From positions 386,824 through 450,823 of the forward strand of contig OZ250142.1 of assembly GCA_965237445.1 (NCBI GenBank): 64,000 bases of DNA, written 5' to 3'. Below the pieces are notes generated by a model, which was given only the letters and a program-made list of their open reading frames with translations, had not been told where the DNA came from and made no database searches. The position numbers and the translations under genes are program-made. Below, one piece after another: positions 32,316 through 45,806 of this stretch. Positions within the stretch are counted from its first letter, which is position 1. Every line of letters begins with the position of its first letter. Source of the stretch: Dehalococcoidia bacterium. GTDB taxonomy: Bacteria; Chloroflexota; Dehalococcoidia; Lucifugimonadales; G963668185.

Positions 32316-33536
32316 ATGCAGGCTCAATTTACTGGCGCATCGATACTTCGAGAGATCAAGAAGGGACTGCCGTACCGCTACTTCTACGCTCCTGAGCAAC
32401 ATCAGAAGGAACTGGATGTCTTCTGGTACGACATGTGGGTTTACGCCTTTCGGGCCGAGGAAGTGGCTTCGCCCAGGGACTACAAGGTCTTCACCGTGGG
32501 CGAGCAGAGTTGCGTCATCACCAGGGACCTCAAAGGCGTCCTACGAGCGTTCCACAACACCTGCCGTCACCGCGGGTCCATCCTGTGCACGGAGGAGTCC
32601 GGCCGCTTTGATGGCGGCTCGGTAGTCTGCCCGTACCACGCCTGGACATACTCGCTCGAGGGCAACCTGATCGCTACGCCCCACCAGTTGGAGTCGGCCG
32701 ACTTCGACATGAAGAACTATTCTCTTTACGAGGTGGCCGTGGGCGAGTGGGCCGGATACATTTTCGTGAACTTCGCCGGCGCCAATGCGGAGCCGCTGGA
32801 GCAGACGTTGGGCAACACCCCTGCCCGCCTCCAGAACTACCACATGGAAGAGTTGAAGCTTGGAAAGCGTATCGTTCTCGACGTGGAGGCCAACTGGAAG
32901 CTGCTGTTCGAGAACTTCTCCGAGTGCTTCCACTGCCCGGGGGTGCACCCGGAATTGTGCGACGTGATACCTATCTATGGCGAGGGCCTGCTCAGCGACC
33001 GGCAGAAAGATGATGGCGCAATGCTCATGGAGCAGGGCAAGGACTTCGAACCGACCGGAGGGCAGACGATGAGCCGAACGCAGCGGCTTGCGCCCGGCAA
33101 GGTGACACTCACGATGGACGGTACCACTAACCTGCCCTTCTTCCGTGACCTAACGGAAGAGGAGAGGAGCACCGGCTACAACGCCGCCGTGCTCAGACCC
33201 AACCTGTTCATCAACATACACCCGGACTTCATCCACACTCACAGGATGCTGCCCACCGGCCCCACCAGCGTTCAGATGACGTACGACTGGTTGTTCGAGC
33301 CGTCTTCGATGGAGTTGCCGGACTTCGACCTGGAAAAGATGGTTGAGCTCTGGGACATCACCAACCGGCAGGACGCCCAGAACTGCAAGTGGCAGCAGTC
33401 CGGCCTGGCCAGCAAAGAGGCCGATAACTGCACATTCGTACCACAGGAGATCGGTCCCTGGCGCTTCCACCAGTGGGTGCTGGAGAGGCTCGGCGAGGAG
33501 ACGGACCACAGCTACGAGGGGGACGTCAGGTACTAA
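32316..33536 (+). CDS. Rieske [2Fe-2S] non-heme-iron oxygenase alpha subunit, paralog R1 (most divergent)
   Basis: SD aggagg before the ATG. CRHRGSILC..x13..CPYHAW Rieske motif and ENFSECFHCPGVHPEL iron motif. Followed by its own terminator. Confidence 0.9.
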   Translation: MQAQFTGASILREIKKGLPYRYFYAPEQHQKELDVFWYDMWVYAFRAEEVASPRDYKVFTVGEQSCVITRDLKGVLRAFHNTCRHRGSILCTEESGRFDGGSVVCPYHAWTYSLEGNLIATPHQLESADFDMKNYSLYEVAVGEWAGYIFVNFAGANAEPLEQTLGNTPARLQNYHMEELKLGKRIVLDVEANWKLLFENFSECFHCPGVHPELCDVIPIYGEGLLSDRQKDDGAMLMEQGKDFEPTGGQTMSRTQRLAPGKVTLTMDGTTNLPFFRDLTEEERSTGYNAAVLRPNLFINIHPDFIHTHRMLPTGPTSVQMTYDWLFEPSSMELPDFDLEKMVELWDITNRQDAQNCKWQQSGLASKEADNCTFVPQEIGPWRFHQWVLERLGEETDHSYEGDVRY

Positions 33537-33567
33537 CCGCCGACTGCACAACCTAACGGTCTGAATA

Positions 33568-33605
33568 GCGGCCCCGCCAGCGCATGGCGGGGCCGCTTGT
33601 TTTCG
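33568..33605 (+). terminator. Intrinsic terminator after R1
   Basis: gcggccccgcc-agcgcat-ggcggggccgc (11-bp stem) followed by ttgttttcg. Confidence 0.75.
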
Positions 33606-33648
33606 TCTAACATAGCCGCAACTGCACTTGCTCGGAGGTGACCACGCT

Positions 33649-34827
33649 ATGTTAACGAGGCAATCATTCGCCAACAGCCCCGCAGCCATCGGCCGCATGG
33701 AATCGAGCTTCCCCAACCACTGGCACTACGACCCGGAGCACCACCGGAAGGAACTCGACGCCTTCTGGTACAGCATGTGGATCTACGCGTGCCGCTCCGA
33801 GGACGTGGGATCGCCGAGGGACTACAAGGTGGTCTCAGTTGGCGACCAGAACGTGGTCGTAACCAGGGACCTCAAGGGGAACGTCCGCGCCTTCCACAAC
33901 ACTTGCCGGCACCGCGGCTCGATACTGTGCACGCAGGACGAGGGCCGCTTCGAGGGCGGATCGATAGTCTGCCCCTACCACGCTTGGACATACTCGCTGG
34001 AGGGTAACCTGATCGCGACGCCTCACCAGCTAGAGTCGGCCGACTTCGACATGAAAGACTACTCACTTTACGGCGTGGCCGTGGGCGAATGGGGCGGCTT
34101 CGTGTTCGTCAACCTCGCGGGGGACCGGGCCGAGCCGCTGGAAAACGTGCTCGGCGACTTTCCGGAACGGTTCGCCAACTACCGCACTGAGGACCTGCGC
34201 CTGGGATACAGGTACGTAGCCGAGATCAAGACGAACTGGAAGCTGTGGTTCGAGAACTATATGGAGTGCTTCCACTGCCCGCAGGTCCACCCCGAGTTGT
34301 GCGCCGTTGTGCCGATCTATGCACTGGCGCTGGACGGGGGCTTCGCTCGCGACTGGGAAGGCACCGGCGGCGACACGATGGTCAGGGAGCTGGACATCAT
34401 TCCCGGCGCGAAGACCTGGACCATGGACGGCCAGCTCAGCGGCCCGGCGCTCAGCGGACTCAGCCAGCACGAGCTGGACAGCCCGCAGAACGGCGGCATG
34501 CTCAGACCGAGCTTCTTCCTGAACATGCACCCGGACTACGTTCACACGCAGCGCATGCTGCCCACGAGTCCGTCCACGGTCGAGATAACGTGGGACTACC
34601 TGTTCGAGCCGGAGACGATGGCGCGCGAGGACTTCGACGCCAAACGAGCGTACGAGCTCTGGCACATCACCAACCTCCAGGACGCTCAGAACGTGGAGTG
34701 GCAGCAGGCTGGCCTCATGGCCGGCAAGAACGTACACAAAAAGAGCCTGTTCGTGTCGAACGAACAGGGACCGTGGCGGTTCAACAGGTGGGTGGCAGAC
34801 AAGCTCAAGGAGGCCGGCGCAATCTAA
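33649..34827 (+). CDS. Rieske non-heme-iron oxygenase alpha subunit, paralog R2
   Basis: SD ggagg lies 11 nt before ATG 33649 (the ORF is open from TTG 33628). Same Rieske motif; ENYMECFHCPQVHPEL iron motif. Confidence 0.9.
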   Translation: MLTRQSFANSPAAIGRMESSFPNHWHYDPEHHRKELDAFWYSMWIYACRSEDVGSPRDYKVVSVGDQNVVVTRDLKGNVRAFHNTCRHRGSILCTQDEGRFEGGSIVCPYHAWTYSLEGNLIATPHQLESADFDMKDYSLYGVAVGEWGGFVFVNLAGDRAEPLENVLGDFPERFANYRTEDLRLGYRYVAEIKTNWKLWFENYMECFHCPQVHPELCAVVPIYALALDGGFARDWEGTGGDTMVRELDIIPGAKTWTMDGQLSGPALSGLSQHELDSPQNGGMLRPSFFLNMHPDYVHTQRMLPTSPSTVEITWDYLFEPETMAREDFDAKRAYELWHITNLQDAQNVEWQQAGLMAGKNVHKKSLFVSNEQGPWRFNRWVADKLKEAGAI

Positions 34828-34881
34828 CTTATTGCCGGTAGAAAGCAACACGCGGCGCAGGACAAGCAGGAGGTCCCAGAA

Positions 34882-36087
34882 ATGCAGGTTTACGACTACG
34901 ATCAGAGATCACGCGTGGTGCTGGACAAGCTGGAGCCCAGCTTTCCGAACAGCTGGCATTACGACCCCCAACACTACCAGAGGGAGCTCGAGACTTTCTG
35001 GTACCGGATGTGGATCAACGTCTGCAGGTCGGACGAGGTGGCCTCGCCCAGGGACTATAAAGTCGTTTCCATTGGTGAGCAGAACATCATCGTCACCAGG
35101 GACCTCAAGGGCATTTTGAGGGCCTTCCACAACACCTGCCGGCACCGAGGGTCGATCCTGTGCACGCAGGACGAGGGCCGCTTCGAGGGTGGCTCCATCG
35201 TCTGCCCGTACCACGCGTGGACATACTCGCTGGAAGGCAACCTGATCGCCACGCCGCACCAGTTGGAGTCGGCCGACTTCACAATGAAGGACTACACGCT
35301 TTACGAGGCGGGAGTCGGCGAGTGGGGCGGCTTCGTGTTCGTCAACCTCACGCCGGAAGAGGCCGAGCCGCTCGAAAAGGCGCTGGGAGACACGCCCCTG
35401 AAGTTCAAGAACTACCACCCGGAGAGACTCAAGCTGGGCTTTCGGTACGTCCATGAGATCAAGGCGAACTGGAAGTTATGGTTCGAGAACTACAGCGAGT
35501 GCTTCCACTGCCCGCAGGTCCACCCGGAGCTCATCAACATTGTGCCGATTTTCTCGAAGGGACTGGGCGACGTCAGGGAGGACCCGGAGTGGAAGCCTTC
35601 CGGCGGAGAAACGATGCTACTGCACGGTGGCTCGGACATCATTCCTGGCGGCAGAACCTGGACGATGGACGGTCAACTCAGCGGCCCCGCGTTCAGCGGC
35701 CTGACGGATGAAGAGGCGAACTGCGTCATCGGCGGCATGCAGCTCCGGCCGAACTTCTTCTTCGTTGCGCACCCGGACTATGTCCACACTCAGCAGATGA
35801 TCCCCACCAGCCCGACCACGGTGCAACTGACATGGGACTACCTGTTCGAGCCTGAGACGATGGAGCGCGACGACTTCGACGCCAAGCGGGGCTACGAGCT
35901 CTGGCACATCACCAACCTCCAGGACGCGCAGAACGTGGAGTGGCAGCAGGCGGGCATCGAGGGCGGCCGCAAGCACCACGAGTACAGTGGTTTCGTGCCG
36001 CAGGAGACGGGGCCGCACCAGTTCAATGGCTGGGTAATGGATGTTATGGAGGCCGCAGGGCACGAGGTGCTGAGGCGCGGCTCGTAG
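34882..36087 (+). CDS. Rieske non-heme-iron oxygenase alpha subunit, paralog R3
   Basis: SD aggagg before the ATG. Rieske and ENYSECFHCPQVHPEL motifs. 401 aa. Confidence 0.9.
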   Translation: MQVYDYDQRSRVVLDKLEPSFPNSWHYDPQHYQRELETFWYRMWINVCRSDEVASPRDYKVVSIGEQNIIVTRDLKGILRAFHNTCRHRGSILCTQDEGRFEGGSIVCPYHAWTYSLEGNLIATPHQLESADFTMKDYTLYEAGVGEWGGFVFVNLTPEEAEPLEKALGDTPLKFKNYHPERLKLGFRYVHEIKANWKLWFENYSECFHCPQVHPELINIVPIFSKGLGDVREDPEWKPSGGETMLLHGGSDIIPGGRTWTMDGQLSGPAFSGLTDEEANCVIGGMQLRPNFFFVAHPDYVHTQQMIPTSPTTVQLTWDYLFEPETMERDDFDAKRGYELWHITNLQDAQNVEWQQAGIEGGRKHHEYSGFVPQETGPHQFNGWVMDVMEAAGHEVLRRGS

Positions 36088-36158
36088 GCAGAGCATTACG
36101 GAAAGTACAGCGCGGCAACCGGAAGGACAACAAGACGGCCGGCAAGGGAGGTCAAACC

Positions 36159-37370
36159 ATGCAGGTGTATAGCTACGAGCAGCGAAAGAACAGGCGCGTT
36201 GTACTGGACAACATGGAGCCCAGCTTCCCGAACAGGTGGCACTACGACCCCGAACACTACCAGAGGGAGCTCGAGACGTTCTGGTACCGGATGTGGATCA
36301 ACGTCTGCAGGTCTGACGAGGTCGCCTCGCCCAGGGACTACAAGGTCGTTTCCATTGGGGAGCAGAACATCGTCGTCACACGGGACCTGAAGGGCAACCT
36401 GAGAGCGTTCCACAACACTTGCCGGCACCGAGGGTCGATCCTGTGCACTGAGGCCAATGGCCGCTTCGAGGGCGGCTCCATCGTCTGCCCGTACCACGCG
36501 TGGACGTACTCTCTGGAAGGCAATCTGATCGCGACGCCGCACCAATTGGAGTCGGCCGACTTCGACATGAAAGACTACTCGCTGTACGACGTGGCAATCG
36601 GCGAGTGGGGCGGCTTCGTGTTCGTGAACCTCACGCCGGAAGAGGCCGAGCCTCTCGAGAAGGCCCTGGGGGACACCCCCGTGAAGTTCAAGAACTACCA
36701 CCCGGAGAGGCTCAAGCTGGGATTCAGGTACGTGCATGAGATCAAGGCCAACTGGAAGCTGTGGTTCGAGAACTACAGCGAGTGCTTCCACTGCCCGCAG
36801 GTCCACCCGGAACTCATCAACATTGTGCCGATCTTCTCCAAAGGACTGGGCAGCGTCAGACAGGACCCGGAGTGGAAGCCATCAGGCGGGGAAACGATGC
36901 TGCTGCACGGCGGCTCGGACATCATTCCGGGCGGCCGGACGTGGACGATGGACGGTCAGCTCAGCGGACCCGCGTTCAGCGGGCTGACTGAAGAGGAGGC
37001 GAACTGCACCATGAGCGGCATGCAGCTCAGGCCGAACTTCTTCTTCGTAGCGCATCCGGACTACGTGCACACACAGCAGATGATCCCGACAAGCCCTACG
37101 ACGGTACAACTCACGTGGGACTACCTGTTCGAGCCGGAGACTATGGAGCGCGACGACTTCGACGCCAAGCGGGGCTACGAGCTCTGGCATGTCACCAACC
37201 TGCAGGACGCGCAGAACGTGGAGTGGCAGCAGGCGGGCATCGAGGGCGGCCGCAAGCACCACGAGTACAGCGTGTTCGTACCGCAGGAGCAGGGGCCGCA
37301 CCAGTTCAACAACTGGGTCATGGAGATCATGGAGGCCGCCGGGCACGAGGTAATCAGGCGCGACGGCTAG
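36159..37370 (+). CDS. Rieske non-heme-iron oxygenase alpha subunit, paralog R4
   Basis: SD gggagg before ATG 36159. The longer track ORF from 35940 overlaps the R3 3' end out of frame. 403 aa. Confidence 0.9.
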   Translation: MQVYSYEQRKNRRVVLDNMEPSFPNRWHYDPEHYQRELETFWYRMWINVCRSDEVASPRDYKVVSIGEQNIVVTRDLKGNLRAFHNTCRHRGSILCTEANGRFEGGSIVCPYHAWTYSLEGNLIATPHQLESADFDMKDYSLYDVAIGEWGGFVFVNLTPEEAEPLEKALGDTPVKFKNYHPERLKLGFRYVHEIKANWKLWFENYSECFHCPQVHPELINIVPIFSKGLGSVRQDPEWKPSGGETMLLHGGSDIIPGGRTWTMDGQLSGPAFSGLTEEEANCTMSGMQLRPNFFFVAHPDYVHTQQMIPTSPTTVQLTWDYLFEPETMERDDFDAKRGYELWHVTNLQDAQNVEWQQAGIEGGRKHHEYSVFVPQEQGPHQFNNWVMEIMEAAGHEVIRRDG

Positions 37371-37438: not shown

Positions 37439-38650
37439 ATGACGCAGTTGTACACGTACGAGAGCAGGATGAGGATCAGGAGGCTCGACAAGCTGGAGCC
37501 GAGCTTCCCCAATAGCTGGCACTACGATCCTGAGCATTACCAGAAGGAACTCAAAGCCTTCTGGTATCGCATGTGGATCAACGTCTGCAGGTCGGACGAA
37601 ATCGCCTCGCCACGGGACTACAAGGTTGTCAGCATTGGCGATCAGAACCTCGTCCTCACGAAGGACCTCAAGGGCAAACTGAGAGCGTTCCACAACACGT
37701 GCCGGCACCGTGGCTCGATCCTGTGCACGCAAGACGAGGGCCGGTTCGAGGGCGGTTCCATCGTCTGCCCGTACCACGCGTGGACGTACTCACTGGAGGG
37801 GAAGCTGATCGCCACGCCGCACCAGCTTGAGTCGGCCGACTTCGCAATGAAAGACTACTCGCTCTACGACGTGGCTGTCGGAGAATGGGGCGGGTTCGTG
37901 TTCGTGAACCTGTCCCCGGACCCGGTCGAGCCGCTCGAAGCGGCGCTGGGAGACACGCCGGAGAAGTTCAAGAACTACCACCCGGAACGGCTGAAGGTGG
38001 GCTTCCGGTACGTGCATGAGATCAAGGGGAACTGGAAACTGTGGTTTGAGAACTTCTCGGAGTGCTACCACTGCCCGACGGTCCATCCGGAGCTCATCAG
38101 CATCGTGCCGATCTTTTCGAAGGGGCTTGGTCGAGTCAATCAAGACCCGGAGTGGAAGCCTTCCGGCGGGGACACAATGGTGCTGCACGGCGGCTCCGAT
38201 ATCATCCCCGGCGGCAGGACTTGGACCATGGACGGCCAACTCAGCGGCCCGACGTTCAGCGGCCTGACGGAAGAGGAGGCCACCAGTGTTATCAATGGGA
38301 TGCAACTCCGGCCAAACTTCTTCTTCATTGCGCACCCCGACTACGTGCATACGCAGCAGATGATCCCCACGAGCCCGACTACGGTACAGCTAACGTGGGA
38401 CTACCTGTTCGAGCCGGAGACGATGGAGCGCGACGACTTCGACGCCAAGCGGGCGTACGAGCTGTGGCACGTCACCAACCTCCAGGACGCGCAGAACGTG
38501 GAGTGGCAACAGGCCGGCATCGAGGGCGGCCGCAAGCACCACGAGTACAGCGTGTTCACGCCGCAGGAGACAGGTCCGCACCAGTTCAACCAGTGGGTCA
38601 TGGAGGTCATGGATGCCGCGGGGCACACAGTGCTGAGGCGCGGCTCGTAG
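37439..38650 (+). CDS. Rieske non-heme-iron oxygenase alpha subunit, paralog R5
   Basis: SD aaaggag before the ATG. Rieske motif and ENFSECYHCPTVHPEL. 403 aa. Confidence 0.9.
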   Translation: MTQLYTYESRMRIRRLDKLEPSFPNSWHYDPEHYQKELKAFWYRMWINVCRSDEIASPRDYKVVSIGDQNLVLTKDLKGKLRAFHNTCRHRGSILCTQDEGRFEGGSIVCPYHAWTYSLEGKLIATPHQLESADFAMKDYSLYDVAVGEWGGFVFVNLSPDPVEPLEAALGDTPEKFKNYHPERLKVGFRYVHEIKGNWKLWFENFSECYHCPTVHPELISIVPIFSKGLGRVNQDPEWKPSGGDTMVLHGGSDIIPGGRTWTMDGQLSGPTFSGLTEEEATSVINGMQLRPNFFFIAHPDYVHTQQMIPTSPTTVQLTWDYLFEPETMERDDFDAKRAYELWHVTNLQDAQNVEWQQAGIEGGRKHHEYSVFTPQETGPHQFNQWVMEVMDAAGHTVLRRGS

Positions 38651-38721: not shown

Positions 38722-39933
38722 ATGCAGGTGTATAGCTACGAGCAGAGAAAGAACAGGCGCGTCGTGCTGGACATGATGGAGCCGAGCTTCCCAAACAGCT
38801 GGCATTACGATCCTGACCACTACCGGAGGGAACTCGAGACGTTCTGGTACCGGATGTGGATCAATGTATGCAGGTCAGACGAGGTCGCATCGCCCAGGGA
38901 CTACAAGGTCGTCACCATCGGCGAGCAGAACATCGTCGTCAGCCGGGACCTCAAGGGCAATCTGAGGGCGTTCCACAACACCTGCAGGCACAGAGGCTCG
39001 ATCCTCTGCACTGAGGCCAAGGGACGGTTCGAGGGCGGCTCCATCGTCTGCCCGTACCACGCCTGGACCTACTCGCTGGAGGGCAAGCTGATCGCTACGC
39101 CCCACCAGCTTGAGTCGGCCGACTTCGACATGAACGACTACTCGCTGTATGGGGTGGCCGTCGGCGAGTGGGGCGGCTTCGTCTTCGTCAACCTCACTCC
39201 GGAGGAGGCCGAGCCGCTCGAGAAGGCGCTTGGCGACACTCCCCTAAAGTTCAAGAACTACCACCCGGAGAGGCTCAAGCTGGGCTTCCGTTACGTGAAG
39301 GAGATCAAGGCGAACTGGAAGCTGTGGTTTGAGAACTACAGCGAGTGCTTCCACTGCCCGCAGGTCCACCCGGAACTCATCAACATAGTGCCCATCTACT
39401 CAAAGGGACTGGGCAACGTCAGGCAAGACCCGGAGTGGAAGCCCTCCGGCGGAGAGACGATGCTGCTGCATGGCGCCTCGGACATCATTCCGGGCGGCAG
39501 AACGTGGACGATGGACGGCCAACTCAGCGGACCGGCGTTCAGCGGACTGACGGAAGAGGAGGCGAACTGCGTCATCAGCGGTATGCAGCTCAGGCCGAAC
39601 TTCTTCTTCGTGGCACATCCCGACTACGTGCACACACAGCAGATGATCCCAACGAGCCCGACCACGGTGCAGCTCACGTGGGACTACCTGTACGAGCCGG
39701 AGACGATGGAGCGCGACGACTTCGACGCCAAGCGAGGCTACGAGCTGTGGCACGTCACCAACCTGCAGGACGCGCAGAACGTCGAGTGGCAGCAGGCGGG
39801 CATCGAGGGCGGCCGCAAGCACCACGCGTACAGCGTGTTCGTGCCGCAGGAGACTGGGCCGCACCAGTTCAACAACTGGGTTATGGAGATCATGGAGGCT
39901 GCCGGTCACGAGGTGCTGAGGCGCGACAGTTAG
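38722..39933 (+). CDS. Rieske non-heme-iron oxygenase alpha subunit, paralog R6
   Basis: SD ggagg before ATG 38722. The 623-aa track ORF from 38062 is an out-of-frame read-through of R5. 403 aa. Confidence 0.9.
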   Translation: MQVYSYEQRKNRRVVLDMMEPSFPNSWHYDPDHYRRELETFWYRMWINVCRSDEVASPRDYKVVTIGEQNIVVSRDLKGNLRAFHNTCRHRGSILCTEAKGRFEGGSIVCPYHAWTYSLEGKLIATPHQLESADFDMNDYSLYGVAVGEWGGFVFVNLTPEEAEPLEKALGDTPLKFKNYHPERLKLGFRYVKEIKANWKLWFENYSECFHCPQVHPELINIVPIYSKGLGNVRQDPEWKPSGGETMLLHGASDIIPGGRTWTMDGQLSGPAFSGLTEEEANCVISGMQLRPNFFFVAHPDYVHTQQMIPTSPTTVQLTWDYLYEPETMERDDFDAKRGYELWHVTNLQDAQNVEWQQAGIEGGRKHHAYSVFVPQETGPHQFNNWVMEIMEAAGHEVLRRDS

Positions 39934-40001: not shown

Positions 40002-41201
40002 ATGCAGCTGTACACCTACCAGCACAGACGTAACAGGCTTGACAGGCTGGAGCCAAGCTTTCCAAACAGCTGGCATTCCGATCCCGAGCACTACCAGAAG
40101 GAGCTCGAGGCTTTCTGGTACCGCATGTGGATCAACGTCTGCAGGTCGGAAGAGGTCTCCTCGCCCAGGGACTACAAGGTCGTCACGATCGGCGAGCAGA
40201 ACATCGTCCTGACAAGGGACCTGAAGGGAAACCTCAGCGCCTTCCACAACACCTGCAGGCACCGAGGCTCCATCCTGTGCACGCAGGACGAGGGCCGCTT
40301 CGAGGGCGGCTCCATCGTCTGCCCGTACCACGCCTGGACGTACTCGTTGGAAGGGAACCTGATCGCCACGCCGCACCAGCTTGAGTCGGCCGACTTCGAC
40401 ATGAAAGACTACTCGCTCTACGAGGCGGCAGTCGGCGAGTGGGGCGGCTTCGTGTTCGTCAACCTCACGCCGGGGGAAGCTGAGCCGCTCGAGAGTGTGC
40501 TGGGCGACGCTCCCCTGAAGTTCGAGAACTACCATCCGGAAAGGCTCAAACTTGGCTTCCGGTACGTGAAGGAGATCAAGGCGAACTGGAAGCTCTGGTT
40601 CGAGAACTTCACCGAGTGTTTCCACTGCCCACAGGTCCATCCGGAACTCGTCAGCGTCGTACCGATATTCTCGAAGGGACTGAGCGGCGTCCAGCAGGAC
40701 CCGGAATGGCGCGACTCAGGGGGCGAGACGATGCTGCTGTACGGCATGGACATCATACCGGGAGGCAAAACGTGGACGATGGACGGACAGCTCAGCGGCC
40801 CGACGCTTAGCGGGCTGACCGAGGAGGAGGCGAACAGCGTCATCACCGGGATGCATCTCAGGCCGAACCTTTTCTTCATTGCGCACCCGGACTACGTGCA
40901 CACCCAGCAGATTATCCCCACGAGCCCTACAACGGTCCAACTCACGTGGGACTACCTGTTCGAGCCGGAGACGATGGAGCGCGACGACTTCGACGCCAAG
41001 CGCGCATACGAGCTGTGGCACATCACGAACCTACAGGACGCGCAGAACGTCGAGTGGCAGCAGTCAGGCATCGAGAGCGGAAGCAAGCACCACGAGTACA
41101 GCGTGTTCGTGCCGCAGGAGACGGGGCCGCACCATTTCAACAACTGGGTCATGGAGGTCATGGAAGCTGCCGGCCACACGGTGGTTAGGCGGGACTCCTA
41201 G
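40002..41201 (+). CDS. Rieske non-heme-iron oxygenase alpha subunit, paralog R7
   Basis: SD ggagg before the ATG. Rieske motif and ENFTECFHCPQVHPEL. 399 aa. Confidence 0.9.
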   Translation: MQLYTYQHRRNRLDRLEPSFPNSWHSDPEHYQKELEAFWYRMWINVCRSEEVSSPRDYKVVTIGEQNIVLTRDLKGNLSAFHNTCRHRGSILCTQDEGRFEGGSIVCPYHAWTYSLEGNLIATPHQLESADFDMKDYSLYEAAVGEWGGFVFVNLTPGEAEPLESVLGDAPLKFENYHPERLKLGFRYVKEIKANWKLWFENFTECFHCPQVHPELVSVVPIFSKGLSGVQQDPEWRDSGGETMLLYGMDIIPGGKTWTMDGQLSGPTLSGLTEEEANSVITGMHLRPNLFFIAHPDYVHTQQIIPTSPTTVQLTWDYLFEPETMERDDFDAKRAYELWHITNLQDAQNVEWQQSGIESGSKHHEYSVFVPQETGPHHFNNWVMEVMEAAGHTVVRRDS

Positions 41202-41288
41202 GCGGCATCCGCCGGAAAGCGTTGCGGAACAGGCGAGAGGAAGCCCTAACGGGAATGACGGTGTTCAGGGGCGCATGTAGGGAACATC

Positions 41289-41654
41289 ATGAGCAAGAGC
41301 TTGCTTCTGCTTGTCACGGTGACTTTACTACTAGTTGCCTGTACCGGTAGGGGCGAGCCGCAAGAAGAAACCGAGGCGCGATTCAAGATTACCGTTATCA
41401 ACGGCGAGATCGCGGGATTCGAGTTAGCAGATCAACCCGACGTATTCGGACCGGATGTGACGTGGGATGAAGTGTTCCTGTACTCCCCCCGCGCGATTCT
41501 GGAGGTCAGGCAGGAGCGAATCCCCGATGACGGGGCTGACTATACGATTGAGGTATTCTACGTAAGCGAGTACAGGAGCGAAGACTTGATGGCGATTGCT
41601 GACGAGTTAGACTTGTCGGCCTTATCCAACGAAGCGACAGCATTGGACGAATAG
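41289..41654 (+). CDS. Small hypothetical lipoprotein inserted in the oxygenase array
   Basis: MSKSLLLLVTVTLLLVAC signal peptide plus lipobox. 121 aa, acidic, lower GC. No family recognised. Confidence 0.55.
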   Translation: MSKSLLLLVTVTLLLVACTGRGEPQEETEARFKITVINGEIAGFELADQPDVFGPDVTWDEVFLYSPRAILEVRQERIPDDGADYTIEVFYVSEYRSEDLMAIADELDLSALSNEATALDE

Positions 41655-41742
41655 GATAACCAGGAGAGGGGTCTTTGCAATGCTGCCAACCACCCGCTCA
41701 CTGCCCGTGTCACCCTCACCCTACCCTCTCCCATCGAGGAGA

Positions 41743-41861
41743 CTTTTGCATAACCAACTTTCGTGGGGATGAGAACCCCATCCCAACCTTCCCCAGCAGA
41801 CTGGGGAAGGGGTCAAAGGAGTGCTTCCGCTGGCGTAGGCGACAGTTTTGCAAAGGTCTCC
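41743..41861. repeat. MITE-like element, copy B (copy A at 6799-6916)
   Basis: Same termini and internal palindrome as copy A. Preceded by a caccctcaccctaccctctccc block that also occurs at about 5093-5125. Confidence 0.75.
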
Positions 41862-41964
41862 ATCTAGGGAGAGGGGATTGTTGGCATTGATGCAAGATTG
41901 CGCAAACGTCTCGACGCAGGCAAGCTAAGGTACAATTCAAGCTGGCACCCTGGCTAGCTACCTG

Positions 41965-42082
41965 CAAGCACCACGAGTACAGCGTGTTCGTGCCGCAGGA
42001 GACGGGGCCGCACCATTTCAACAACTGGGTCATGGAGGTCATGGAGTCGGCCGGGCACACCGTGGTTAGGAGGGACTCCTAG
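41965..42082 (+). pseudogene. 3'-terminal remnant of a Rieske oxygenase paralog
   Basis: The first 82 nt are identical to R7 nt 41083-41164. It ends with the same ...VVRRDS-TAG tail. No upstream coding part is present. Confidence 0.85.
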
Positions 42083-42142
42083 CCGCAGTCCCCGGGTGAA
42101 TGCCGCTCAGGATGCAATTGTAAGACATATGGGGGTCTGCGG

Positions 42143-43378
42143 GTGACACAACAGAGCGATTGTTGCGGGACCACCTATGAGGGCGAGATCGAGGTGCGCT
42201 CTTCGAGCGCCGGAATACGGCCTCTGGAACTGCTTAAAGGCATGGGCACCAGCTTCTCCAACCACTGGCACTACGACCCGGAGCACCACCGCAGGGAACT
42301 GGACGTTTTCTGGTATAGCATGTGGGTCTACGTGTGCCGGTCCGAGGAAGTATCGTCTCCCAGGGACTATAAAGTCGTCACGATCGGCGACCAGAACGTC
42401 ATCATCACCAGAGACCTCAAGGGCAACGTCCGGGCCTTCCACAACACATGCCGGCATCGCGGCTCGATCCTGTGCACGCAGGAGCAGGGCCGGTTCGAGG
42501 GCGGCTCCATCGTCTGCCCGTACCATGCCTGGACCTACTCGCTGGAAGGCGACCTGATCGCCACGCCGCACCAGCTTGAGTCGGCGGACTTCGACATGAA
42601 AGACTACTCGCTGTACGGCGTTGCCGCCGGCGAGTGGGGCGGCCTGGTGTTCGTCAACCTCGCGGGCGACCGAGCCGAGCCTCTCGAGGAAGCGCTCGGC
42701 GACGCGCCGCAGAGGCTGAAGAATTACCGCCTCGAGGAGTTACGTCTGGGCTTTAGATACGTGGCGAACCTAAGTGCGAACTGGAAGCTATGGTTCGAGA
42801 ACTATACCGAATGCTTCCATTGCCCATCGGTCCACCTAGAACTGATCAATCTCGTGCCGATTTACTCAAAGGGGCTGGTGGACGTGCGGCAGGACCCGGA
42901 GTGGAAGACGAGCGGCGGCGAGTCAATGAAGCTCGTAGGCGCGGACATCATCCCCGGCGGCATGACGTGGACGATGGACGGCCGGCTCAGCGGCCCGCCG
43001 ATCAGCACCCTCTCCGAACAGGAGCTACAGCACCCCGTGAACGGAACGGTGCTGCGGCCCAGCCTGTTCATGAGCACGCACCCGGACTACGTTCACACGC
43101 AGCGCCTTCTCCCGACTGGACCGAACACACTCCAGCTAACGTGGGACTACCTGTTCGAGCCCGAGACGATGGAGCGCGAAGACTTTGACGCCAAGCGTGC
43201 CTACGAGCTCTGGCACATCACGAACCAGCAGGACGCGCAGAACGTCGAGTGGCAGCAGGCAGGCATCGAGAGCGGCCGCAAGGTGCACAAGCGCAGCGTC
43301 TTCTCGATCCAGGAGACTGGGCCCAACGCCTTCAATCAATGGATACAGGAAAGACTAAACGGAGGAGGCGAGCATTGA
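42143..43378 (+). CDS. Rieske non-heme-iron oxygenase alpha subunit, paralog R8
   Basis: Rieske motif and ENYTECFHCPSVHLEL. The start is uncertain: GTG 42143 or ATG 42242. Confidence 0.85.
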   Translation: MTQQSDCCGTTYEGEIEVRSSSAGIRPLELLKGMGTSFSNHWHYDPEHHRRELDVFWYSMWVYVCRSEEVSSPRDYKVVTIGDQNVIITRDLKGNVRAFHNTCRHRGSILCTQEQGRFEGGSIVCPYHAWTYSLEGDLIATPHQLESADFDMKDYSLYGVAAGEWGGLVFVNLAGDRAEPLEEALGDAPQRLKNYRLEELRLGFRYVANLSANWKLWFENYTECFHCPSVHLELINLVPIYSKGLVDVRQDPEWKTSGGESMKLVGADIIPGGMTWTMDGRLSGPPISTLSEQELQHPVNGTVLRPSLFMSTHPDYVHTQRLLPTGPNTLQLTWDYLFEPETMEREDFDAKRAYELWHITNQQDAQNVEWQQAGIESGRKVHKRSVFSIQETGPNAFNQWIQERLNGGGEH

Positions 43379-44589
43379 GACCTAGCTCTTCGCCGGAAGA
43401 CGTAGGCAGTTCCGGCGGGCCGAATCTCAAGCCTAACTTGTTGCTGGACGGGATGGGCACGAGCTTCCCGAACCGCTGGCATTACGATCCGGACCACTAT
43501 CGGAAGGAACTCGAGGTATTCTGGTACAGCATGTGGGTCTACGCATGTCGCTCCGAAGACATAGGCTCTCCGAGAGAGTACAGAGTCGTCTCGATTGGCG
43601 ACCAGAACGTCATTGTGACCAGGGACCTCAAAGGCAACGCCCGAGCTTTCCACAACACGTGCCGTCATCGCGGCTCCATACTGTGCACGCAGGACGAGGG
43701 CCGCTTCGAGGGCGGGTCCATCGTGTGCCCGTATCATGCGTGGACCTACTCGCTCGAGGGTGACCTGATCGCCACACCCCACCAGTTGGAGTCGGCCGAC
43801 TTCAGCATGCAGGACTATTCGCTGTACAACGTAGCCATTGGCGAGTGGGGAGGGTTCGTCTTCGTGAACCTCGCCGGTGACCGGGCCGAACCCCTGGAAG
43901 TCGCGCTCGGCGACGCGACGCGGCGGCTCAAGAACTATCGCCTAGAGGACCTGCGGCTCGGTTGGAGGTACGTCGCGAACGTCAAGGCGAACTGGAAGCT
44001 GTGGTTCGAGAACTTCACGGAATGCTTCCACTGCCCGTCGGTGCACCCTGAGTTAATCAGCCTGGTGCCGATCTTCTCCAAGGGCCTCACGGACACTCGT
44101 CAGGACCCGGAGTGGAGGCCGTCCGGCGGCGACACAATATCGCTATCCGGGGCTGACATGATTCCGGGCGGCAAAACATGGACGATGGACGGCCAGCTAA
44201 GCGGCCCGCCAATAAGCACGCTCACCGATGCGGAGCTGAACACCCCGAGGGACGGGACGATAATGCGGCCCAGCCTGTTCATCAGGACTCATCCGGACTT
44301 CGTCCACACGCAGCGATTGCTGCCGACCGGCCCGAACACGCTCCAGCTTACGTGGGACTTCCTGTTCGAGCCGGAGACGATGGCACGCGACGACTTCGAT
44401 CCCAAGCGCGCCTACGAGCTTTGGCAAATCACGAACCTGCAGGATGCACAGAACGTCGAGTGGCAACAGGCAGGCATCGAGGGCGGCCGCAGGGTGCATA
44501 ACCGGAGCGTCTTCTCGATTCAGGAGCCCGGGCCCAACGCATTCAACCAATGGATACGGGAAAAACTGGAGGGAGGAAGCCAGCATTGA
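43375..44589 (+). CDS. Rieske non-heme-iron oxygenase alpha subunit, paralog R9
   Basis: In-frame TTG 43375 overlaps the R8 stop (TTGA), with ggaggagg upstream. Alternative start ATG 43453. The longer track ORF from 43249 overlaps R8. Confidence 0.85.
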   Translation: MRPSSSPEDVGSSGGPNLKPNLLLDGMGTSFPNRWHYDPDHYRKELEVFWYSMWVYACRSEDIGSPREYRVVSIGDQNVIVTRDLKGNARAFHNTCRHRGSILCTQDEGRFEGGSIVCPYHAWTYSLEGDLIATPHQLESADFSMQDYSLYNVAIGEWGGFVFVNLAGDRAEPLEVALGDATRRLKNYRLEDLRLGWRYVANVKANWKLWFENFTECFHCPSVHPELISLVPIFSKGLTDTRQDPEWRPSGGDTISLSGADMIPGGKTWTMDGQLSGPPISTLTDAELNTPRDGTIMRPSLFIRTHPDFVHTQRLLPTGPNTLQLTWDFLFEPETMARDDFDPKRAYELWQITNLQDAQNVEWQQAGIEGGRRVHNRSVFSIQEPGPNAFNQWIREKLEGGSQH

Positions 44590-45806
44590 ACTCGAATCCA
44601 TCGCCGGACACCATTGTCAGCTCAGTCAGCGCAGACATGCGCCCTACGATCTTGCTGGACGGAATGGGGAAGAGCTTCCCGAACCACTGGCACTACGATA
44701 CGGACCACTACCGGAAGGAGTTGGATGCCTTTTGGTACAGTATGTGGGTCTACGCCTGCCGCTCTGAGGACATTGCCACACCAAGGGACTACCAAGTGGT
44801 CACCATAGGCAACCAGAACGTCATCGTCACCAGAGACCTCCGGGGCAACGTCCGGGCCTTCCACAATACATGCCGGCACCGCGGCTCAATTCTCTGCACG
44901 GAGGACAAGGGACGCTTCGAGGGCGGATCCATCGTCTGCCCGTATCATGCGTGGACCTACTCGCTCGAGGGCGACTTGATCGCCACACCCCACCAGCTAG
45001 AGTCGGCCGACTTCGAAATGAATGACTATTCGCTATACAGCGTAGCCGTGGGAGAGTGGGACGGATTCGTGCTTGTTAACCTGGCGGGAGACCGTGCCGA
45101 GCCGTTGGAGGACGCTCTCGGCGACGCGCCTCAGAGGCTCAAGAACTACCGCCTCAAGGATTTACGGCTTGGCTGGAGGTACGTCGCGAACCTCAATGCG
45201 AACTGGAAGCTGTGGTTCGAGAATTTCACCGAGTGCTTCCATTGCCCGCAGGTCCACCCGGAGCTCGTCAGCCTCGTGCCCATATACGCCAAGGGCCTCG
45301 TGGATGTGCGCCAGGAACCCGGGTGGGAGCCGTCCGGAGGCGACACTCTGACGTTGGTGGGCGCCGACATTATCCCCGGAGGCAAGACCTGGACAATGGA
45401 CGGCCAGCTTAGCGGCCCTGCCATAAGCACTCTCTCCCAGCGGGAGTGCGGCATACCGATCAATGGCACAATCCTCAAGCCAAGCCTGTTCGTGAGCACA
45501 CACCCCGACTATGTGCACGTCCAAAGGCTTCTGCCGACCGGCCCAAACACGCTCCAGCTAACGTGGGACTACCTGTTCGAGCCAGAGACTATGGAGCGCG
45601 ATGATTTCGATCCTAAGCGCGCCTACGAACTGTGGCACATTACCAACCTGCAGGATGCGCAGAACGTCGAGTGGCAGCAGGCGGGCATCGAAGGCGGACG
45701 CCGTGTCCACCACAAGAGCATGTTCGCGCGCCAGGAGACGGGGCCCTACTGGTTCAATCGCTGGGTGGAAGACACCCTGGAGGCCACCGGCGCCATCACG
45801 GAGTAG
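44586..45806 (+). CDS. Rieske non-heme-iron oxygenase alpha subunit, paralog R10
   Basis: In-frame TTG 44586 overlaps the R9 stop (TTGA), with ggagggagg upstream. Alternative start ATG 44637. Confidence 0.85.
   Translation: MNSNPSPDTIVSSVSADMRPTILLDGMGKSFPNHWHYDTDHYRKELDAFWYSMWVYACRSEDIATPRDYQVVTIGNQNVIVTRDLRGNVRAFHNTCRHRGSILCTEDKGRFEGGSIVCPYHAWTYSLEGDLIATPHQLESADFEMNDYSLYSVAVGEWDGFVLVNLAGDRAEPLEDALGDAPQRLKNYRLKDLRLGWRYVANLNANWKLWFENFTECFHCPQVHPELVSLVPIYAKGLVDVRQEPGWEPSGGDTLTLVGADIIPGGKTWTMDGQLSGPAISTLSQRECGIPINGTILKPSLFVSTHPDYVHVQRLLPTGPNTLQLTWDYLFEPETMERDDFDPKRAYELWHITNLQDAQNVEWQQAGIEGGRRVHHKSMFARQETGPYWFNRWVEDTLEATGAITE

What the first reader, a model, noticed from the sequence alone, without database searches (positions are those of the whole stretch)
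32316..45806. A 13.5-kb head-to-tail array of ten full-length alpha-only Rieske oxygenase paralogs
**What the sequence shows.** Ten same-strand ORFs of about 392-411 aa follow each other. Spacers are 54-112 bp, or the ORFs overlap by 4 nt; only the R7/R8 gap is larger. Every copy keeps three conserved elements:

- the Rieske cluster ligands CRHRGSILC-x13-CPYHAW (C-x-H-x19-C-x2-H)
- the mononuclear-iron motif NWKL(W/L)FEN(Y/F)xEC(F/Y)HCPxVH(P/L)EL (H-x4-H)
- a conserved TN(L/Q/R)QDAQN(V/C)(E/K)WQQ(A/S)G block

All ten therefore look functional. No beta subunit, ferredoxin or reductase gene is interspersed.

**Subfamilies.** The copies fall into visible groups: R3-R7 (roughly nine in ten residues shared by eye, not computed), R8-R10 with R2 nearer to them, and R1 as the outlier with its own terminator.

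**Where the copies differ.** Differences are concentrated in a few places:

- the first ~20 residues
- the four residues after the first Cys/His pair (QDEG, EANG, EAKG, EESG, QEQG, EDKG)
- the stretch around SKGL.DVR.DPEW...GG.TM.L.G.D
- the ...EEANCVI.GMQLRP... segment of the catalytic domain
- the C-terminal tail

**Interpretation.** From memory, the E-C-(F/Y)-H-C-P context is shared with alpha3-type oxygenases acting on small polar or quaternary-amine substrates (choline monooxygenase, GbcA, CntA, Stc2-like). The inference is a locally amplified and diversifying battery of oxygenases or demethylases. It would cover a family of related substrates, with specificity tuned in a few pocket segments.
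Basis: partly seen in the sequence, partly recalled or inferred. Interest (0 to 1): 0.9.

Follow-up and report, generated by a model that had tools for sequence, protein, structure and literature searches.

The report
Ten-gene array of Rieske monooxygenase paralogs
An uncultured Dehalococcoidia bacterium carries ten intact, long-diverged copies of one iron-sulfur oxygenase gene in a row; they most likely strip methyl or alkyl groups from different betaine-like nitrogen compounds, which extends a known enzyme family and a known habit of gene-family expansion rather than revealing a new kind of system.

Summary
Ten intact same-strand genes (32316-45806) each encode a Rieske [2Fe-2S] domain and a non-heme-iron catalytic domain with every ligand present.

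The array is not an assembly artefact. Four independent assemblies are about 99% identical and collinear with it. The longest exact run shared by two copies is 68 nt.

It is not a recent amplification. The closest copies have dS of about 0.5. Most copies have positional orthologues in other Dehalococcoidia genomes, which carry 5-9 copies with the same flanks. Every orthologue pair is under purifying selection (omega 0.06-0.16, apart from near-identical R5).

By sequence and predicted fold the proteins belong with the beta-less "group V" Rieske monooxygenases of quaternary amines: Stc2, 3n0q, CntA and GbcA-like enzymes. They form an uncharacterised subclade. They carry the Cys pair and the CntA-type aromatic pi-cation residue on a Stc2-like scaffold, and they score far below the GbcA cut-off.

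Variation sits in the N-terminus, a loop-rich stretch after the His motif (221-300) and the C-terminus. The Rieske domain is held constant by selection.

No reductase, ferredoxin or beta subunit lies in the window. Neighbours elsewhere (homocysteine S-methyltransferase, DAO-type and SoxA/OoxA-like flavoproteins, a DgcA/StcD-type enzyme) fit N-methyl-amine catabolism.

Substrates are untested. Interest is moderate.

The parts
32316..33536 (+). R1, the outlier Rieske monooxygenase alpha gene (406 aa)
   Evidence: PF00355 plus PF00848. 54-57% aa identity to the other copies. Orthologues in L001, L002 and L083.
33567..33597 (+). Intrinsic-terminator-like hairpin after R1
   Evidence: Stem of 13 pairs (11 G-C) followed by TGTTTT. 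It suggests R1 is its own transcription unit.
33649..34827 (+). R2 (392 aa)
   Evidence: PF00355 plus PF00848. 67-71% identity to R3-R10. Branches outside both subfamilies.
34882..36087 (+). R3 (401 aa), subfamily R3-R7
   Evidence: AlphaFold2 model: pLDDT 85.7, pTM 0.87. Foldseek best matches are Stc2 and 3n0q at TM 0.76-0.77.
36159..37370 (+). R4 (403 aa)
   Evidence: 94% aa identity to R6, dS 0.48.
37439..38650 (+). R5 (403 aa)
   Evidence: Unusually close to its L002 orthologue: dS 0.043 against 0.4-0.8 for the neighbouring genes.
38722..39933 (+). R6 (403 aa)
   Evidence: It occupies the position of L002 copy 6 but by sequence it is sister to R4. This points to an old replacement or gene conversion.
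40002..41201 (+). R7 (399 aa)
41202..41963 (+). 762-bp insert between R7 and R8
   Evidence: Absent from L002, where copies 7 and 8 are 45 bp apart. Present in the four near-identical assemblies.
41289..41654 (+). 121-aa ORF with a lipoprotein-like N-terminus (LLLVAC), no family match
   Evidence: Called as a gene in L090-L093.
41738..41862 (.). Small repeated element with terminal inverted repeats (GGAGACTTTTGCA ... TGCAAAGGTCTCC)
   Evidence: 94% identical to window 6800-6916.
41964..42082 (+). Duplicate of the last ~119 bp of R7, including its stop codon: a gene fragment, not an eleventh gene
   Evidence: tblastn E 2.5e-19 to the R7 C-terminus. DNA alignment. Its downstream flank matches the original copy-7/copy-8 junction of L002.
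42143..43378 (+). R8 (411 aa from GTG 42143; 394 aa from 42194), subfamily R8-R10
   Evidence: Gene callers use the 411-aa form.
43375..44589 (+). R9 (404 aa, TTG start, 4-nt overlap with R8)
   Evidence: GGAGGAGG lies upstream of the start. Domains.
44586..45806 (+). R10 (406 aa, TTG start, 4-nt overlap with R9)
   Evidence: GGAGGGAGG lies upstream of the start. Domains.
30756..32120 (-). MFS transporter (MFS_3/MFS_1), divergent from R1; conserved left flank
   Evidence: Same position in L001, L002, L083 and L088.
30388..30723 (-). 111-aa cupin; conserved left flank
   Evidence: PF07883, with a weak PF16867 hit. Same position in the related loci.
45957..47023 (-). Homocysteine S-methyltransferase (PF02574) gene, broken by two frameshifts at about 46670-46721 in this assembly
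   Evidence: Intact at 354 aa in L001, L002 and L090-L093.
47180..47264 (+). Decayed fragment of a Rieske 3' end (R10-like tail) with an in-frame stop
   Evidence: tblastn E 0.002. 75% nt identity to the 3' end of the last L002 copy.
47352..48962 (-). 536-aa flavoprotein: Pyr_redox_2 plus BFD-like [2Fe-2S] plus SO_alpha_A3 (SoxA/OoxA-like alpha subunit); conserved right flank
   Evidence: Homologues elsewhere pair with a DAO-family gene and with PF02574.

Best explanation
The region is an ancient, conserved tandem array of ten functional genes in a Dehalococcoidia (Chloroflexota) chromosome. The genes encode beta-less, alpha3-type group V Rieske non-heme-iron monooxygenases.

**Shown from sequence**
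- Each protein has a Rieske [2Fe-2S] centre (Cys/His, Cys/His).
- Each has a 2-His-1-Asp iron site and the bridging Glu.
- Each has the C-x-x-C pair next to the iron.
- Each has an aromatic residue (Phe or Tyr) at the position where CntA Tyr203 holds a quaternary ammonium group by a pi-cation contact.

**Inferred mechanism, by homology with Stc2, CntA and GbcA**
- Each protein forms a head-to-tail trimer.
- It takes two electrons from NAD(P)H through a reductase that all ten copies share. That reductase is encoded outside this window.
- Electrons pass from the Rieske centre of one subunit, through the Glu, to the iron of the next subunit.
- The iron site hydroxylates a carbon next to a positively charged nitrogen (or similar onium group). 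This releases formaldehyde (N-demethylation) or cleaves the C-N bond.

**Inferred role of the ten copies**
- The copies keep the electron-receiving Rieske domain nearly constant.
- They differ in the loop-rich stretch after the His motif (residues ~221-300), in the C-terminal helix and tail, and in the N-terminus.
- They most likely cover different betaine-like or N-methylated substrates.
- Neighbouring genes (MFS transporter, PF02574 methyltransferase, SoxA/OoxA-like flavoprotein) would handle uptake and later methyl-group steps.

**Expression units (inferred)**
- R1 has its own terminator.
- R2-R7 are closely spaced and each has its own ribosome-binding site.
- R8-R10 are translationally coupled.
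For: **Domains and ligands**
-.

**Family placement**
- phmmer and profile hits to Stc2, 3n0q and CntA: E 1e-41 to 1e-71, well ahead of aromatic dioxygenases.
- Foldseek TM 0.76-0.77 to Stc2 and 3n0q, and 0.67 to CntA.
- GbcA is the best NCBIfam model.
- Group V definitions, the Cys pair, Tyr203 and Glu205 come from PMC7948474 and PMC10952381.
- F/Y at the Tyr203 position occurs in all ten copies and in 119 of 120 database homologues.

**No partner genes in the window**
- No beta subunit, ferredoxin or FNR-type reductase among the window ORFs scanned.

**Age and maintenance**
- Paralogue dS 0.48 to above 1, with omega 0.07-0.3.
- Positional orthologues in other genomes have omega 0.06-0.16, near-identical R5 apart.
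- Arrays of 5-9 copies with the same flanks exist elsewhere.

**Reality of the ten copies**
- Four assemblies at about 99% identity are collinear with the window.
- The longest shared exact run between copies is 68 nt.

**Division of labour within the protein**
- The Rieske domain is 73-88% identical between copies with dS of about 1, which means selection rather than gene conversion.
- Residues 221-300 are 41-85% identical.
- That stretch includes a long coil (residues ~227-275) in the model, with pLDDT below 50 at 241-250.
- The position equivalent to the CntA pocket residue Tyr225 alternates F/Y between copies, even between R4 and R6.

**Context pointing to N-methyl compounds**
- PF02574 lies next to the array.
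- A DAO plus SoxA-like pair lies next to the L088 array.
- A DAO gene lies next to the singleton paralogue in L005.
- A DgcA/StcD-type Oxidored_FMN plus Pyr_redox_2 enzyme and two PF02574 genes lie next to the Udaeobacter homologue.
Against: - No activity, expression or oligomer data exist.
- The proteins score 180-203 bits against a GbcA cut-off of 670.
- They are only 22-26% identical to solved structures in structural alignment. No substrate can be transferred by homology.
- All characterised group V systems have a dedicated reductase gene beside the oxygenase. None is here.
- The upstream MFS transporter is of the EntS/efflux-like type, not a known betaine importer.
- PF02574 proteins can also be the homocysteine-binding module of a split methionine synthase (PMC12478193). 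That neighbour is therefore weak evidence.
- Most distant homologues have uninformative neighbourhoods.
- The link between the variable stretches and the pocket rests on a model and two mapped residues, not on measured distances.
Confidence: 0.6

Rival explanations
1. The ten enzymes act on aromatic or other uncharged dissolved organic compounds. Examples are ring hydroxylation or O-demethylation of lignin- or humic-derived acids. This is what has been proposed for the Rieske 'ring-hydroxylating dioxygenase' expansions of marine SAR202 Dehalococcoidia.
For: - Pfam and public annotation call them ring-hydroxylating alpha subunits (JGI names).
- COG4638 expansions of up to 62 copies are known in SAR202 and were read as aromatic degradation (PMC6946804).
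- The window also carries enolase-superfamily, sulfatase and GFO/IDH/MocA genes. In SAR202, enolase-superfamily and arylsulfatase genes have been tied to DOM and sulfated-polysaccharide use.
- An aromatic residue at the CntA Tyr203 site can also stack on rings; it stacks on the CntA inhibitor.
Against: - Aromatic dioxygenases are clearly more distant than Stc2, CntA and GbcA in sequence and in fold.
- No beta subunit gene is present.
- The Cys pair and pi-cation residue are group V features.
- The SAR202 expansions were mostly phthalate-type enzymes, a different Rieske group.
- Informative neighbourhoods point to N-methyl metabolism.
Confidence: 0.2
2. The copies are isozymes for the same substrate. 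They would be kept for dosage or for expression under different conditions, not for different specificities.
For: - All catalytic residues are identical.
- P. denitrificans keeps two redundant Rieske proline-betaine demethylases (PMC3950512).
- R3-R7 are 84-94% identical.
Against: - Dosage arrays are normally young and homogenised. Here dS is 0.5 to above 1, there are no conversion tracts (longest identical run 68 nt), and each copy is conserved separately across species.
- Divergence is concentrated in the catalytic-domain loops while the Rieske domain is held constant.
- R2-R7 and R8-R10 look co-transcribed, which gives little room for differential regulation.
Confidence: 0.12
3. The array is an assembly artefact: a collapsed or expanded repeat, or a chimera of strains.
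For: - This assembly carries local indel problems. The PF02574 gene has two frameshifts and the class IV aminotransferase gene is split, while both are intact in sister assemblies.
Against: - Four independent assemblies from three samples give the same ten-gene order at about 99% identity with 6-7 gaps in 16.6 kb.
- The copies differ by at least 10% in DNA, and the longest shared exact run is 68 nt.
- More distant genomes have collinear 8-9-copy arrays.
Confidence: 0.01

Closest known systems
Stachydrine (proline betaine) demethylase Stc2 of Sinorhizobium meliloti (PDB 3vca, 4qup; group Vb), its structural-genomics relative 3n0q, and the HpbB1/HpbC1 and HpbB2/HpbC2 proline-betaine demethylases of Paracoccus
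   Same: - Best sequence and fold match: profile E 1e-70, TM 0.76-0.77.
- Beta-less Rieske enzyme with the same Rieske ligands, His-x4-His plus Asp iron site, bridging Glu and C-x-x-C pair.
- Similar length (about 400 aa).
   Different: - Only about 25% identity in structural alignment.
- Stc2 has Asn where all ten copies have Phe or Tyr. Stc2 binds its substrate through the carboxylate on the iron (PMC7948474).
- Stc2 has a longer insertion after the His motif.
- Known systems are one or two genes beside a reductase gene, not ten oxygenase genes without one.
Carnitine monooxygenase CntA/YeaW (PDB 6y8j; group Va), with choline monooxygenase and OxyBAC
   Same: - Aromatic residue two positions before the bridging Glu (CntA Tyr203), which holds the quaternary ammonium group by a pi-cation contact.
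- Cys206/Cys209 pair.
- Alpha3 head-to-tail architecture expected.
   Different: - More distant overall: TM 0.67, and the C-terminal catalytic half is barely alignable by sequence.
- CntA cleaves the C-N bond and works with the FMN/[2Fe-2S] reductase CntB encoded next to it.
Glycine betaine monooxygenase GbcA/BmoA (NCBIfam NF058607)
   Same: - Best-scoring curated family model.
- Many database homologues are auto-annotated 'glycine betaine catabolism A'.
   Different: - Scores of 180-203 bits against a cut-off of 670, so not equivalogues.
- GbcA/BmoA lack the aromatic residue (PMC7948474).
- GbcA is paired with the reductase GbcB.
Paralogue expansions of oxidative enzymes in SAR202 and other Dehalococcoidia (FMNO, enolase-superfamily and COG4638 Rieske dioxygenases; PMC6946804)
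   Same: - Same class of bacteria.
- Same evolutionary habit: many diverged paralogues of one oxidative enzyme, read as a way to widen the substrate range.
   Different: - The described Rieske expansions were mostly phthalate-family enzymes, proposed to act on aromatics.
- That paper does not mention a tandem arrangement.
- Here there is a single, strictly tandem, syntenic array of group V enzymes.

Membership tests
Rieske non-heme iron oxygenase alpha subunit (PF00355 + PF00848) | Rieske [2Fe-2S] ligands C-x-H ... C-x-x-H | tested here: met
   C-R-H-x19-C-P-Y-H is invariant in all ten copies. PF00355 E 1e-18 to 1e-21.
Rieske non-heme iron oxygenase alpha subunit (PF00355 + PF00848) | 2-His-1-carboxylate iron site plus a bridging carboxylate before the first His | tested here: met
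   E-C-x-H-C-P-x-V-H is invariant. The invariant Asp of Q-D-A-Q-N aligns with Stc2 Asp360 and CntA Asp323. PF00848 is matched full-length.
Group V (quaternary-amine) Rieske monooxygenases | Closer to Stc2/GbcA/CntA than to group I-IV aromatic dioxygenases | tested here: met
   Profile scores: 3n0q and Stc2 242-244 bits, CntA 172 bits, best aromatic enzyme 137 bits. Foldseek gives the same order. No formal phylogeny with all reference groups was built.
Group V (quaternary-amine) Rieske monooxygenases | Cys-x-x-Cys pair beside the mononuclear iron | tested here: met
   E-C-(F/Y)-H-C in all ten copies. The feature is described in PMC10952381.
Group V (quaternary-amine) Rieske monooxygenases | Homotrimer without a beta subunit | tested here: inconclusive
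   No PF00866-type gene among the window ORFs scanned, and the nearest structures are beta-less. The oligomeric state itself cannot be tested here.
Group V (quaternary-amine) Rieske monooxygenases | Dedicated reductase gene (FNR-type flavin plus plant-type [2Fe-2S], e.g. GbcB, CntB) next to the oxygenase gene | tested here: not met
   None in the 64-kb window. None next to the arrays or single homologues examined. The rest of the genome could not be scanned.
Group V (quaternary-amine) Rieske monooxygenases | Oxidation of a quaternary ammonium substrate | not testable with these tools
   Needs enzyme assays.
Group Va (CntA, choline monooxygenase, OxyBAC) | Aromatic residue at the CntA Tyr203 position (pi-cation contact) | tested here: met
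   Phe in R1, R5, R7, R9 and R10. Tyr in R2, R3, R4, R6 and R8. General in the wider clade.
Group Va (CntA, choline monooxygenase, OxyBAC) | Overall sequence affinity to CntA/CMO rather than to Stc2/GbcA | tested here: not met
   Stc2 and 3n0q score higher than CntA in every comparison.
Group Vb (Stc2, GbcA/BmoA demethylases) | No aromatic residue at that position; substrate carboxylate bound to the iron | tested here: not met
   All ten copies have F/Y where Stc2 has Asn. Group definitions in PMC7948474. The binding mode is not testable here.
GbcA equivalog (NCBIfam NF058607) | Score at or above the curated cut-off of 670 bits | tested here: not met
   180-203 bits for R1, R3 and R9.

The most novel reading that the evidence does not exclude
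The array could be more than a set of independent enzymes. Two readings remain open.

**Mixed trimers**
- All ten copies keep the Rieske domain and the subunit-bridging Glu nearly constant, while the pocket loops vary.
- R2-R7 and R8-R10 appear co-expressed.
- The subunits might therefore assemble into mixed alpha3 trimers, giving combinatorial oxygenases.

**An unusual electron donor**
- The copies might be served by the conserved, apparently partner-less SoxA/OoxA-like flavoprotein with a BFD-type [2Fe-2S] domain next to the array.
- That would be a reductase class not known for Rieske oxygenases.
Probability: 0.1. Interest if true: 0.75.

Novelty: new variant of a known kind. Interest (0 to 1): 0.5.

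Why it matters
- Group V Rieske monooxygenases are the least understood branch of a much-studied enzyme family. Only two members have published structural studies and about half a dozen substrates are known.
- They control the fate of betaines, choline and carnitine in soils, oceans and the gut.
- This array is a natural series of ten (across species, about a dozen) closely related enzymes. They share one electron-receiving domain but differ in a few loop segments. That makes it a ready-made library for working out what sets substrate specificity in this group.
- It also suggests that uncultured Dehalococcoidia invest heavily in oxidising methylated nitrogen (or related onium) compounds. This role has not been described for them: a full-text search for Dehalococcoidia, Rieske and betaine together returned nothing.
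- The array shows how a bacterial tandem gene family can stay stable over long periods without being homogenised.

Tried and rejected
- **Assembly artefact.** Rejected. Four collinear assemblies at about 99% identity, and at most 68-nt exact repeats between copies.
- **Recent amplification or dosage array.** Rejected on dS, on orthologue conservation and on synteny with other species.
- **Rieske-domain conservation caused by gene conversion.** Rejected. dS in that domain is as high as elsewhere, about 0.6-1.2.
- **The 536-aa Pyr_redox_2/BFD flavoprotein as the dedicated reductase.**
  - It is conserved beside the array.
  - In other Dehalococcoidia its homologues pair with a DAO-family gene and with PF02574.
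  - It is absent from the loci of distant Rieske homologues.
  - It is therefore more likely the alpha subunit of an amine dehydrogenase. The reductase idea is kept only as a minor possibility.
- **An eleventh gene in the R7/R8 gap.** Only a 119-bp duplicate of the R7 3' end is there.
- **RNA elements.** Rfam found nothing in 30000-49500 at E up to 0.1.
- **Origin of the 762-bp insert.** No plasmid match.
- **The cupin as a DMSP lyase.** Only a weak PF16867 hit, and the first metal motif reads H-D-D-D-E rather than H-x-H. Not concluded.
- **Mapping variable sites in three dimensions.** The CntA C-terminal half aligns too weakly (4.3 bits). The Stc2 paper was not held.
- **Mesorhizobium, L084, L085 and L089 neighbourhoods.** Uninformative.

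Full report

Yes. Ten + strand ORFs of 392-411 aa fill 32316-45806. Start-codon and Shine-Dalgarno inspection gives these gene limits:

| Gene | Coordinates | Note |
|---|---|---|
| R1 | 32316-33536 | |
| R2 | 33649-34827 | |
| R3 | 34882-36087 | |
| R4 | 36159-37370 | |
| R5 | 37439-38650 | |
| R6 | 38722-39933 | |
| R7 | 40002-41201 | |
| R8 | 42143 (or 42194)-43378 | |
| R9 | 43375-44589 | TTG start |
| R10 | 44586-45806 | TTG start |

Spacers are 112, 54, 71, 68, 71 and 68 bp. Then comes a gap of 941-992 bp, followed by two 4-nt overlaps.

Every copy matches PF00355 (Rieske) and the full length of PF00848 (catalytic domain), with E-values of 1e-18 to 1e-42. The alignment shows the following as invariant:
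- C-x-H-x19-C-x2-H;
- the E-C-x-H-C-P-x-V-H block;
- the Q-D-A-Q-N block.

**2. Is the copy number trustworthy?**

- The copies differ by at least 10% in DNA.
- The longest exact run shared by any two copies is 68 nt.
- Four independent assemblies from three samples (L090-L093) show the same gene order, including the odd R7/R8 gap.
- Those assemblies align to window 34586-51192 at 98.8-99.1% identity with only 6-7 gaps.

An artefact is excluded.

**3. How old is the array, and how does it evolve?**

Protein identities:
- 84-94% within R3-R7;
- 77-79% within R8-R10;
- 67-71% for R2 against R3-R10;
- 54-57% for R1 against all others.

Synonymous divergence is already 0.48-0.79 within R3-R7 and about 1 between subfamilies. 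Omega is 0.07-0.15 for close pairs.

The organism is a Dehalococcoidia bacterium. The nearest public genomes are 3.2-Mb MAG chromosomes OZ220745.1 and OZ253485.1. Related genomes carry the same array between the same flanks:
- 8 copies in L001/L003;
- 9 copies in L002 and in L083/L006 (one copy split in L083);
- 5 copies, plus a truncated copy and a transposase-like gene, in L088.

Window 30380-41176 is collinear with L002 at 87.8% identity over 10.8 kb. A distance tree groups the copies by position, not by genome. Positional orthologues have dS of 0.4-0.8 (against L002) or 0.65-1.2 (against L001), with omega 0.06-0.16.

So the duplications predate these species. Each copy has been kept separately by purifying selection. 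There is some turnover:
- R6 sits where L002 has its copy 6, but by sequence it is sister to R4.
- L002 has one gene where the window has R9 and R10.
- R5 is almost identical at synonymous sites to its L002 orthologue (dS 0.043), which suggests a recent exchange between lineages.

This is birth-and-death evolution of an old array, not a recent local amplification.

**4. What are the proteins?**

Evidence from sequence and fold:
- Sequence searches of solved structures put stachydrine demethylase Stc2 (3vca, 4qup), its uncharacterised relative 3n0q, and carnitine monooxygenase CntA first. Aromatic dioxygenases come well behind.
- A 30-sequence profile gives the same order.
- An AlphaFold2 model of R3 has pLDDT 85.7 and pTM 0.87.
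- The model matches Stc2 and 3n0q at TM 0.76-0.77 and CntA at 0.67.
- GbcA is the best NCBIfam model, but at 180-203 bits against a cut-off of 670.

These relatives define the 'group V' Rieske monooxygenases of quaternary amines. According to PMC7948474 and PMC10952381:
- they are beta-less head-to-tail trimers;
- a Glu bridges the Rieske centre of one subunit to the iron of the next;
- many have a C-x-x-C pair beside the iron;
- subgroup Va (CntA, choline monooxygenase, OxyBAC) holds the ammonium group with an aromatic residue (CntA Tyr203);
- subgroup Vb (Stc2, GbcA/BmoA) has no aromatic residue there and, in Stc2, binds the substrate carboxylate to the iron.

All ten copies have the Glu, the Cys pair, and Phe or Tyr at the Tyr203 position, while Stc2 has Asn there. 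The same holds for 119 of 120 database homologues and for 79 of 81 motif instances found in the fetched genome loci.

The array therefore belongs to a large, uncharacterised group V subclade. That subclade combines a Stc2-like scaffold with the Va-type pi-cation residue. The proteins are not orthologues of GbcA, Stc2 or CntA.

**5. Where do the copies differ?**

Variation between orthogroups is concentrated in three places:
- residues 1-22;
- residues 221-300;
- residues 361-401.

Residues 81-150 (Rieske domain) and 301-360 (the strands and the helix carrying the Asp ligand) are nearly constant. In the Rieske domain dN is low while dS is as high as elsewhere. Selection, not gene conversion, keeps it constant. 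This fits a shared electron donor and a shared subunit interface.

The 221-300 stretch follows the His motif. In the model, residues ~227-275 within it are a long coil, with pLDDT below 50 at 241-250. The position aligned to the CntA pocket residue Tyr225 alternates Phe/Tyr among the copies, including between the closest pair R4 and R6.

No stretch of the catalytic core shows omega near or above 1. Only the short, poorly alignable termini do.

**6. Surroundings**

Left flank, divergent from R1:
- an MFS transporter and a 111-aa cupin, conserved in all related loci.

Right flank, convergent:
- a PF02574 homocysteine S-methyltransferase. It is frameshifted twice in this assembly but is an intact 354-aa gene in the sister assemblies.
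- a 536-aa flavoprotein with Pyr_redox_2, BFD-type [2Fe-2S] and SO_alpha_A3 domains.

Homologues of that flavoprotein elsewhere in Dehalococcoidia sit next to a DAO-family oxidoreductase, and in one case next to PF02574. In L088 the DAO gene and the flavoprotein follow the array directly.

Other informative neighbourhoods:
- The single extra paralogue in a related genome is followed by a DAO-family gene.
- A homologue in Candidatus Udaeobacter lies beside a DgcA/StcD-type Oxidored_FMN plus Pyr_redox_2 enzyme and two PF02574 genes.

These partners are the kinds of enzymes that handle tertiary and secondary N-methyl amines and methyl transfer in known betaine pathways (PMC3950512, PMC12478193).

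No FNR-type reductase, ferredoxin or beta subunit was found among the window ORFs scanned.

**7. Best explanation and rivals**

- **Main reading (confidence about 0.6).** The array is a battery of ten group V Rieske monooxygenases. They share one reductase encoded elsewhere. They hydroxylate carbons next to an onium nitrogen, giving demethylation or C-N cleavage. Different loop and C-terminal sequences give different substrates. The family and chemistry part is about 0.9 likely. Quaternary or N-methyl substrates are about 0.55-0.6 likely. Distinct specificities are about 0.65 likely.
- **Rival 1 (0.2).** Aromatic or uncharged DOM substrates, as proposed for SAR202 Rieske expansions (PMC6946804).
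- **Rival 2 (0.12).** Redundant isozymes.
- **Rival 3 (0.01).** Artefact.

**8. Comparison with what is known, and novelty**

Paralogue expansions of oxidative enzymes, including COG4638 Rieske proteins, are already described for marine Dehalococcoidia (SAR202). Those were mainly phthalate-type enzymes, and the paper does not mention a tandem arrangement. Full-text searches found nothing that links Dehalococcoidia, Rieske enzymes and betaines, and nothing on multi-copy group V arrays.

Known group V systems are one or two oxygenase genes beside a reductase gene. This case differs in three ways:
- copy number;
- the missing adjacent reductase;
- the mixed Va/Vb signature.

I rate it a new variant of a known kind, of moderate interest (0.5). 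It is useful as a natural specificity series and as a pointer to methylated-amine oxidation in these bacteria. It is not conceptually surprising.

**9. The R7/R8 gap**

A 762-bp insert (41202-41963) is flanked by a direct repeat of the last ~119 bp of R7 (41083-41201 and 41964-42082). The insert carries:
- a 121-aa lipoprotein-like ORF;
- a ~125-bp element with terminal inverted repeats that recurs at 6793-6917.

L002 lacks the insert. The four near-identical assemblies have it.

Noticed in passing
window 41202-42082: A 762-bp insert lies between R7 and R8. It is flanked by a ~119-bp direct repeat of the R7 3' end (41083-41201 and 41964-42082). It carries a 121-aa lipoprotein-like ORF (41289-41654) with no family match. 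It is absent from L002 and present in L090-L093.
   Followed up: yes
window 41738-41862 and 6793-6917: A ~125-bp repeated element (94% identical copies). It has imperfect terminal inverted repeats (GGAGACTTTTGCA ... TGCAAAGGTCTCC) and an internal GGGGAAGG/CCTTCCCC hairpin. It looks like a MITE.
   Followed up: partly
window 46670-46721 (within 45957-47023, - strand): The PF02574 homocysteine S-methyltransferase gene changes frame twice within about 50 bp. The same gene is an intact 354-aa ORF in L001, L002 and in the ~99% identical assemblies L090-L093. A sequencing or assembly indel error is therefore more likely than a true pseudogene.
   Followed up: partly
window 52741-53575 (- strand): The class IV aminotransferase gene is split into two ORFs (144 and 131 aa). 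It is a single 298-aa gene in L001 and L090. This is probably another indel error in this assembly.
   Followed up: no
window 47180-47264 (+ strand): A decayed fragment of a Rieske-gene 3' end (R10-like tail) with an in-frame stop. It lies between the S-methyltransferase and flavoprotein genes. L001 and L002 have a SAM-dependent methyltransferase gene at this spot, which the window lineage lacks. The fragment looks like the relic of an old rearrangement at the array's end.
   Followed up: partly
window 37439-38650 (R5) versus L002:12558-13769: R5 is almost identical at synonymous sites to its orthologue in a different species-level genome: dS 0.043 against 0.4-0.8 for the neighbouring genes. 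This suggests recent recombination between lineages affecting a single array member.
   Followed up: partly
window 47352-48962 (- strand); L086, L087, L088: A 536-aa Pyr_redox_2 / BFD [2Fe-2S] / SO_alpha_A3 flavoprotein is widespread in Dehalococcoidia (58-67% identity). It is usually next to a DAO-family gene, like OoxA/OoxB or SoxA/SoxB pairs. In the window lineage it has no DAO partner nearby.
   Followed up: partly
window 51192 onward versus L090-L093: Collinearity with the ~99% identical assemblies stops at 51192, just after the DUF2461 gene. Those assemblies have three small ORFs and an 810-aa CarboxypepD_reg protein. The window has a 467-aa version immediately (51198-52601). This is a strain-level structural difference.
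   Followed up: no
window 24956-25948 (- strand): A 330-aa protein combines a collagen-like triple-helix repeat (residues 31-72) with single-Cache sensor domains. This is an unusual pairing.
   Followed up: no
window 14545-22770: A cluster of genes: enolase-superfamily (MR_MLE), sulfatase, two GFO/IDH/MocA oxidoreductases and a xylose-isomerase-like TIM barrel. In SAR202, enolase-superfamily paralogue expansions are described and arylsulfatases are mentioned.
   Followed up: no
L005:9866-12385 (OZ220745.1) and L004: The related genomes carry one extra, non-array paralogue (about 60% identical to R1). It is directly followed by a DAO-family FAD oxidoreductase.
   Followed up: partly
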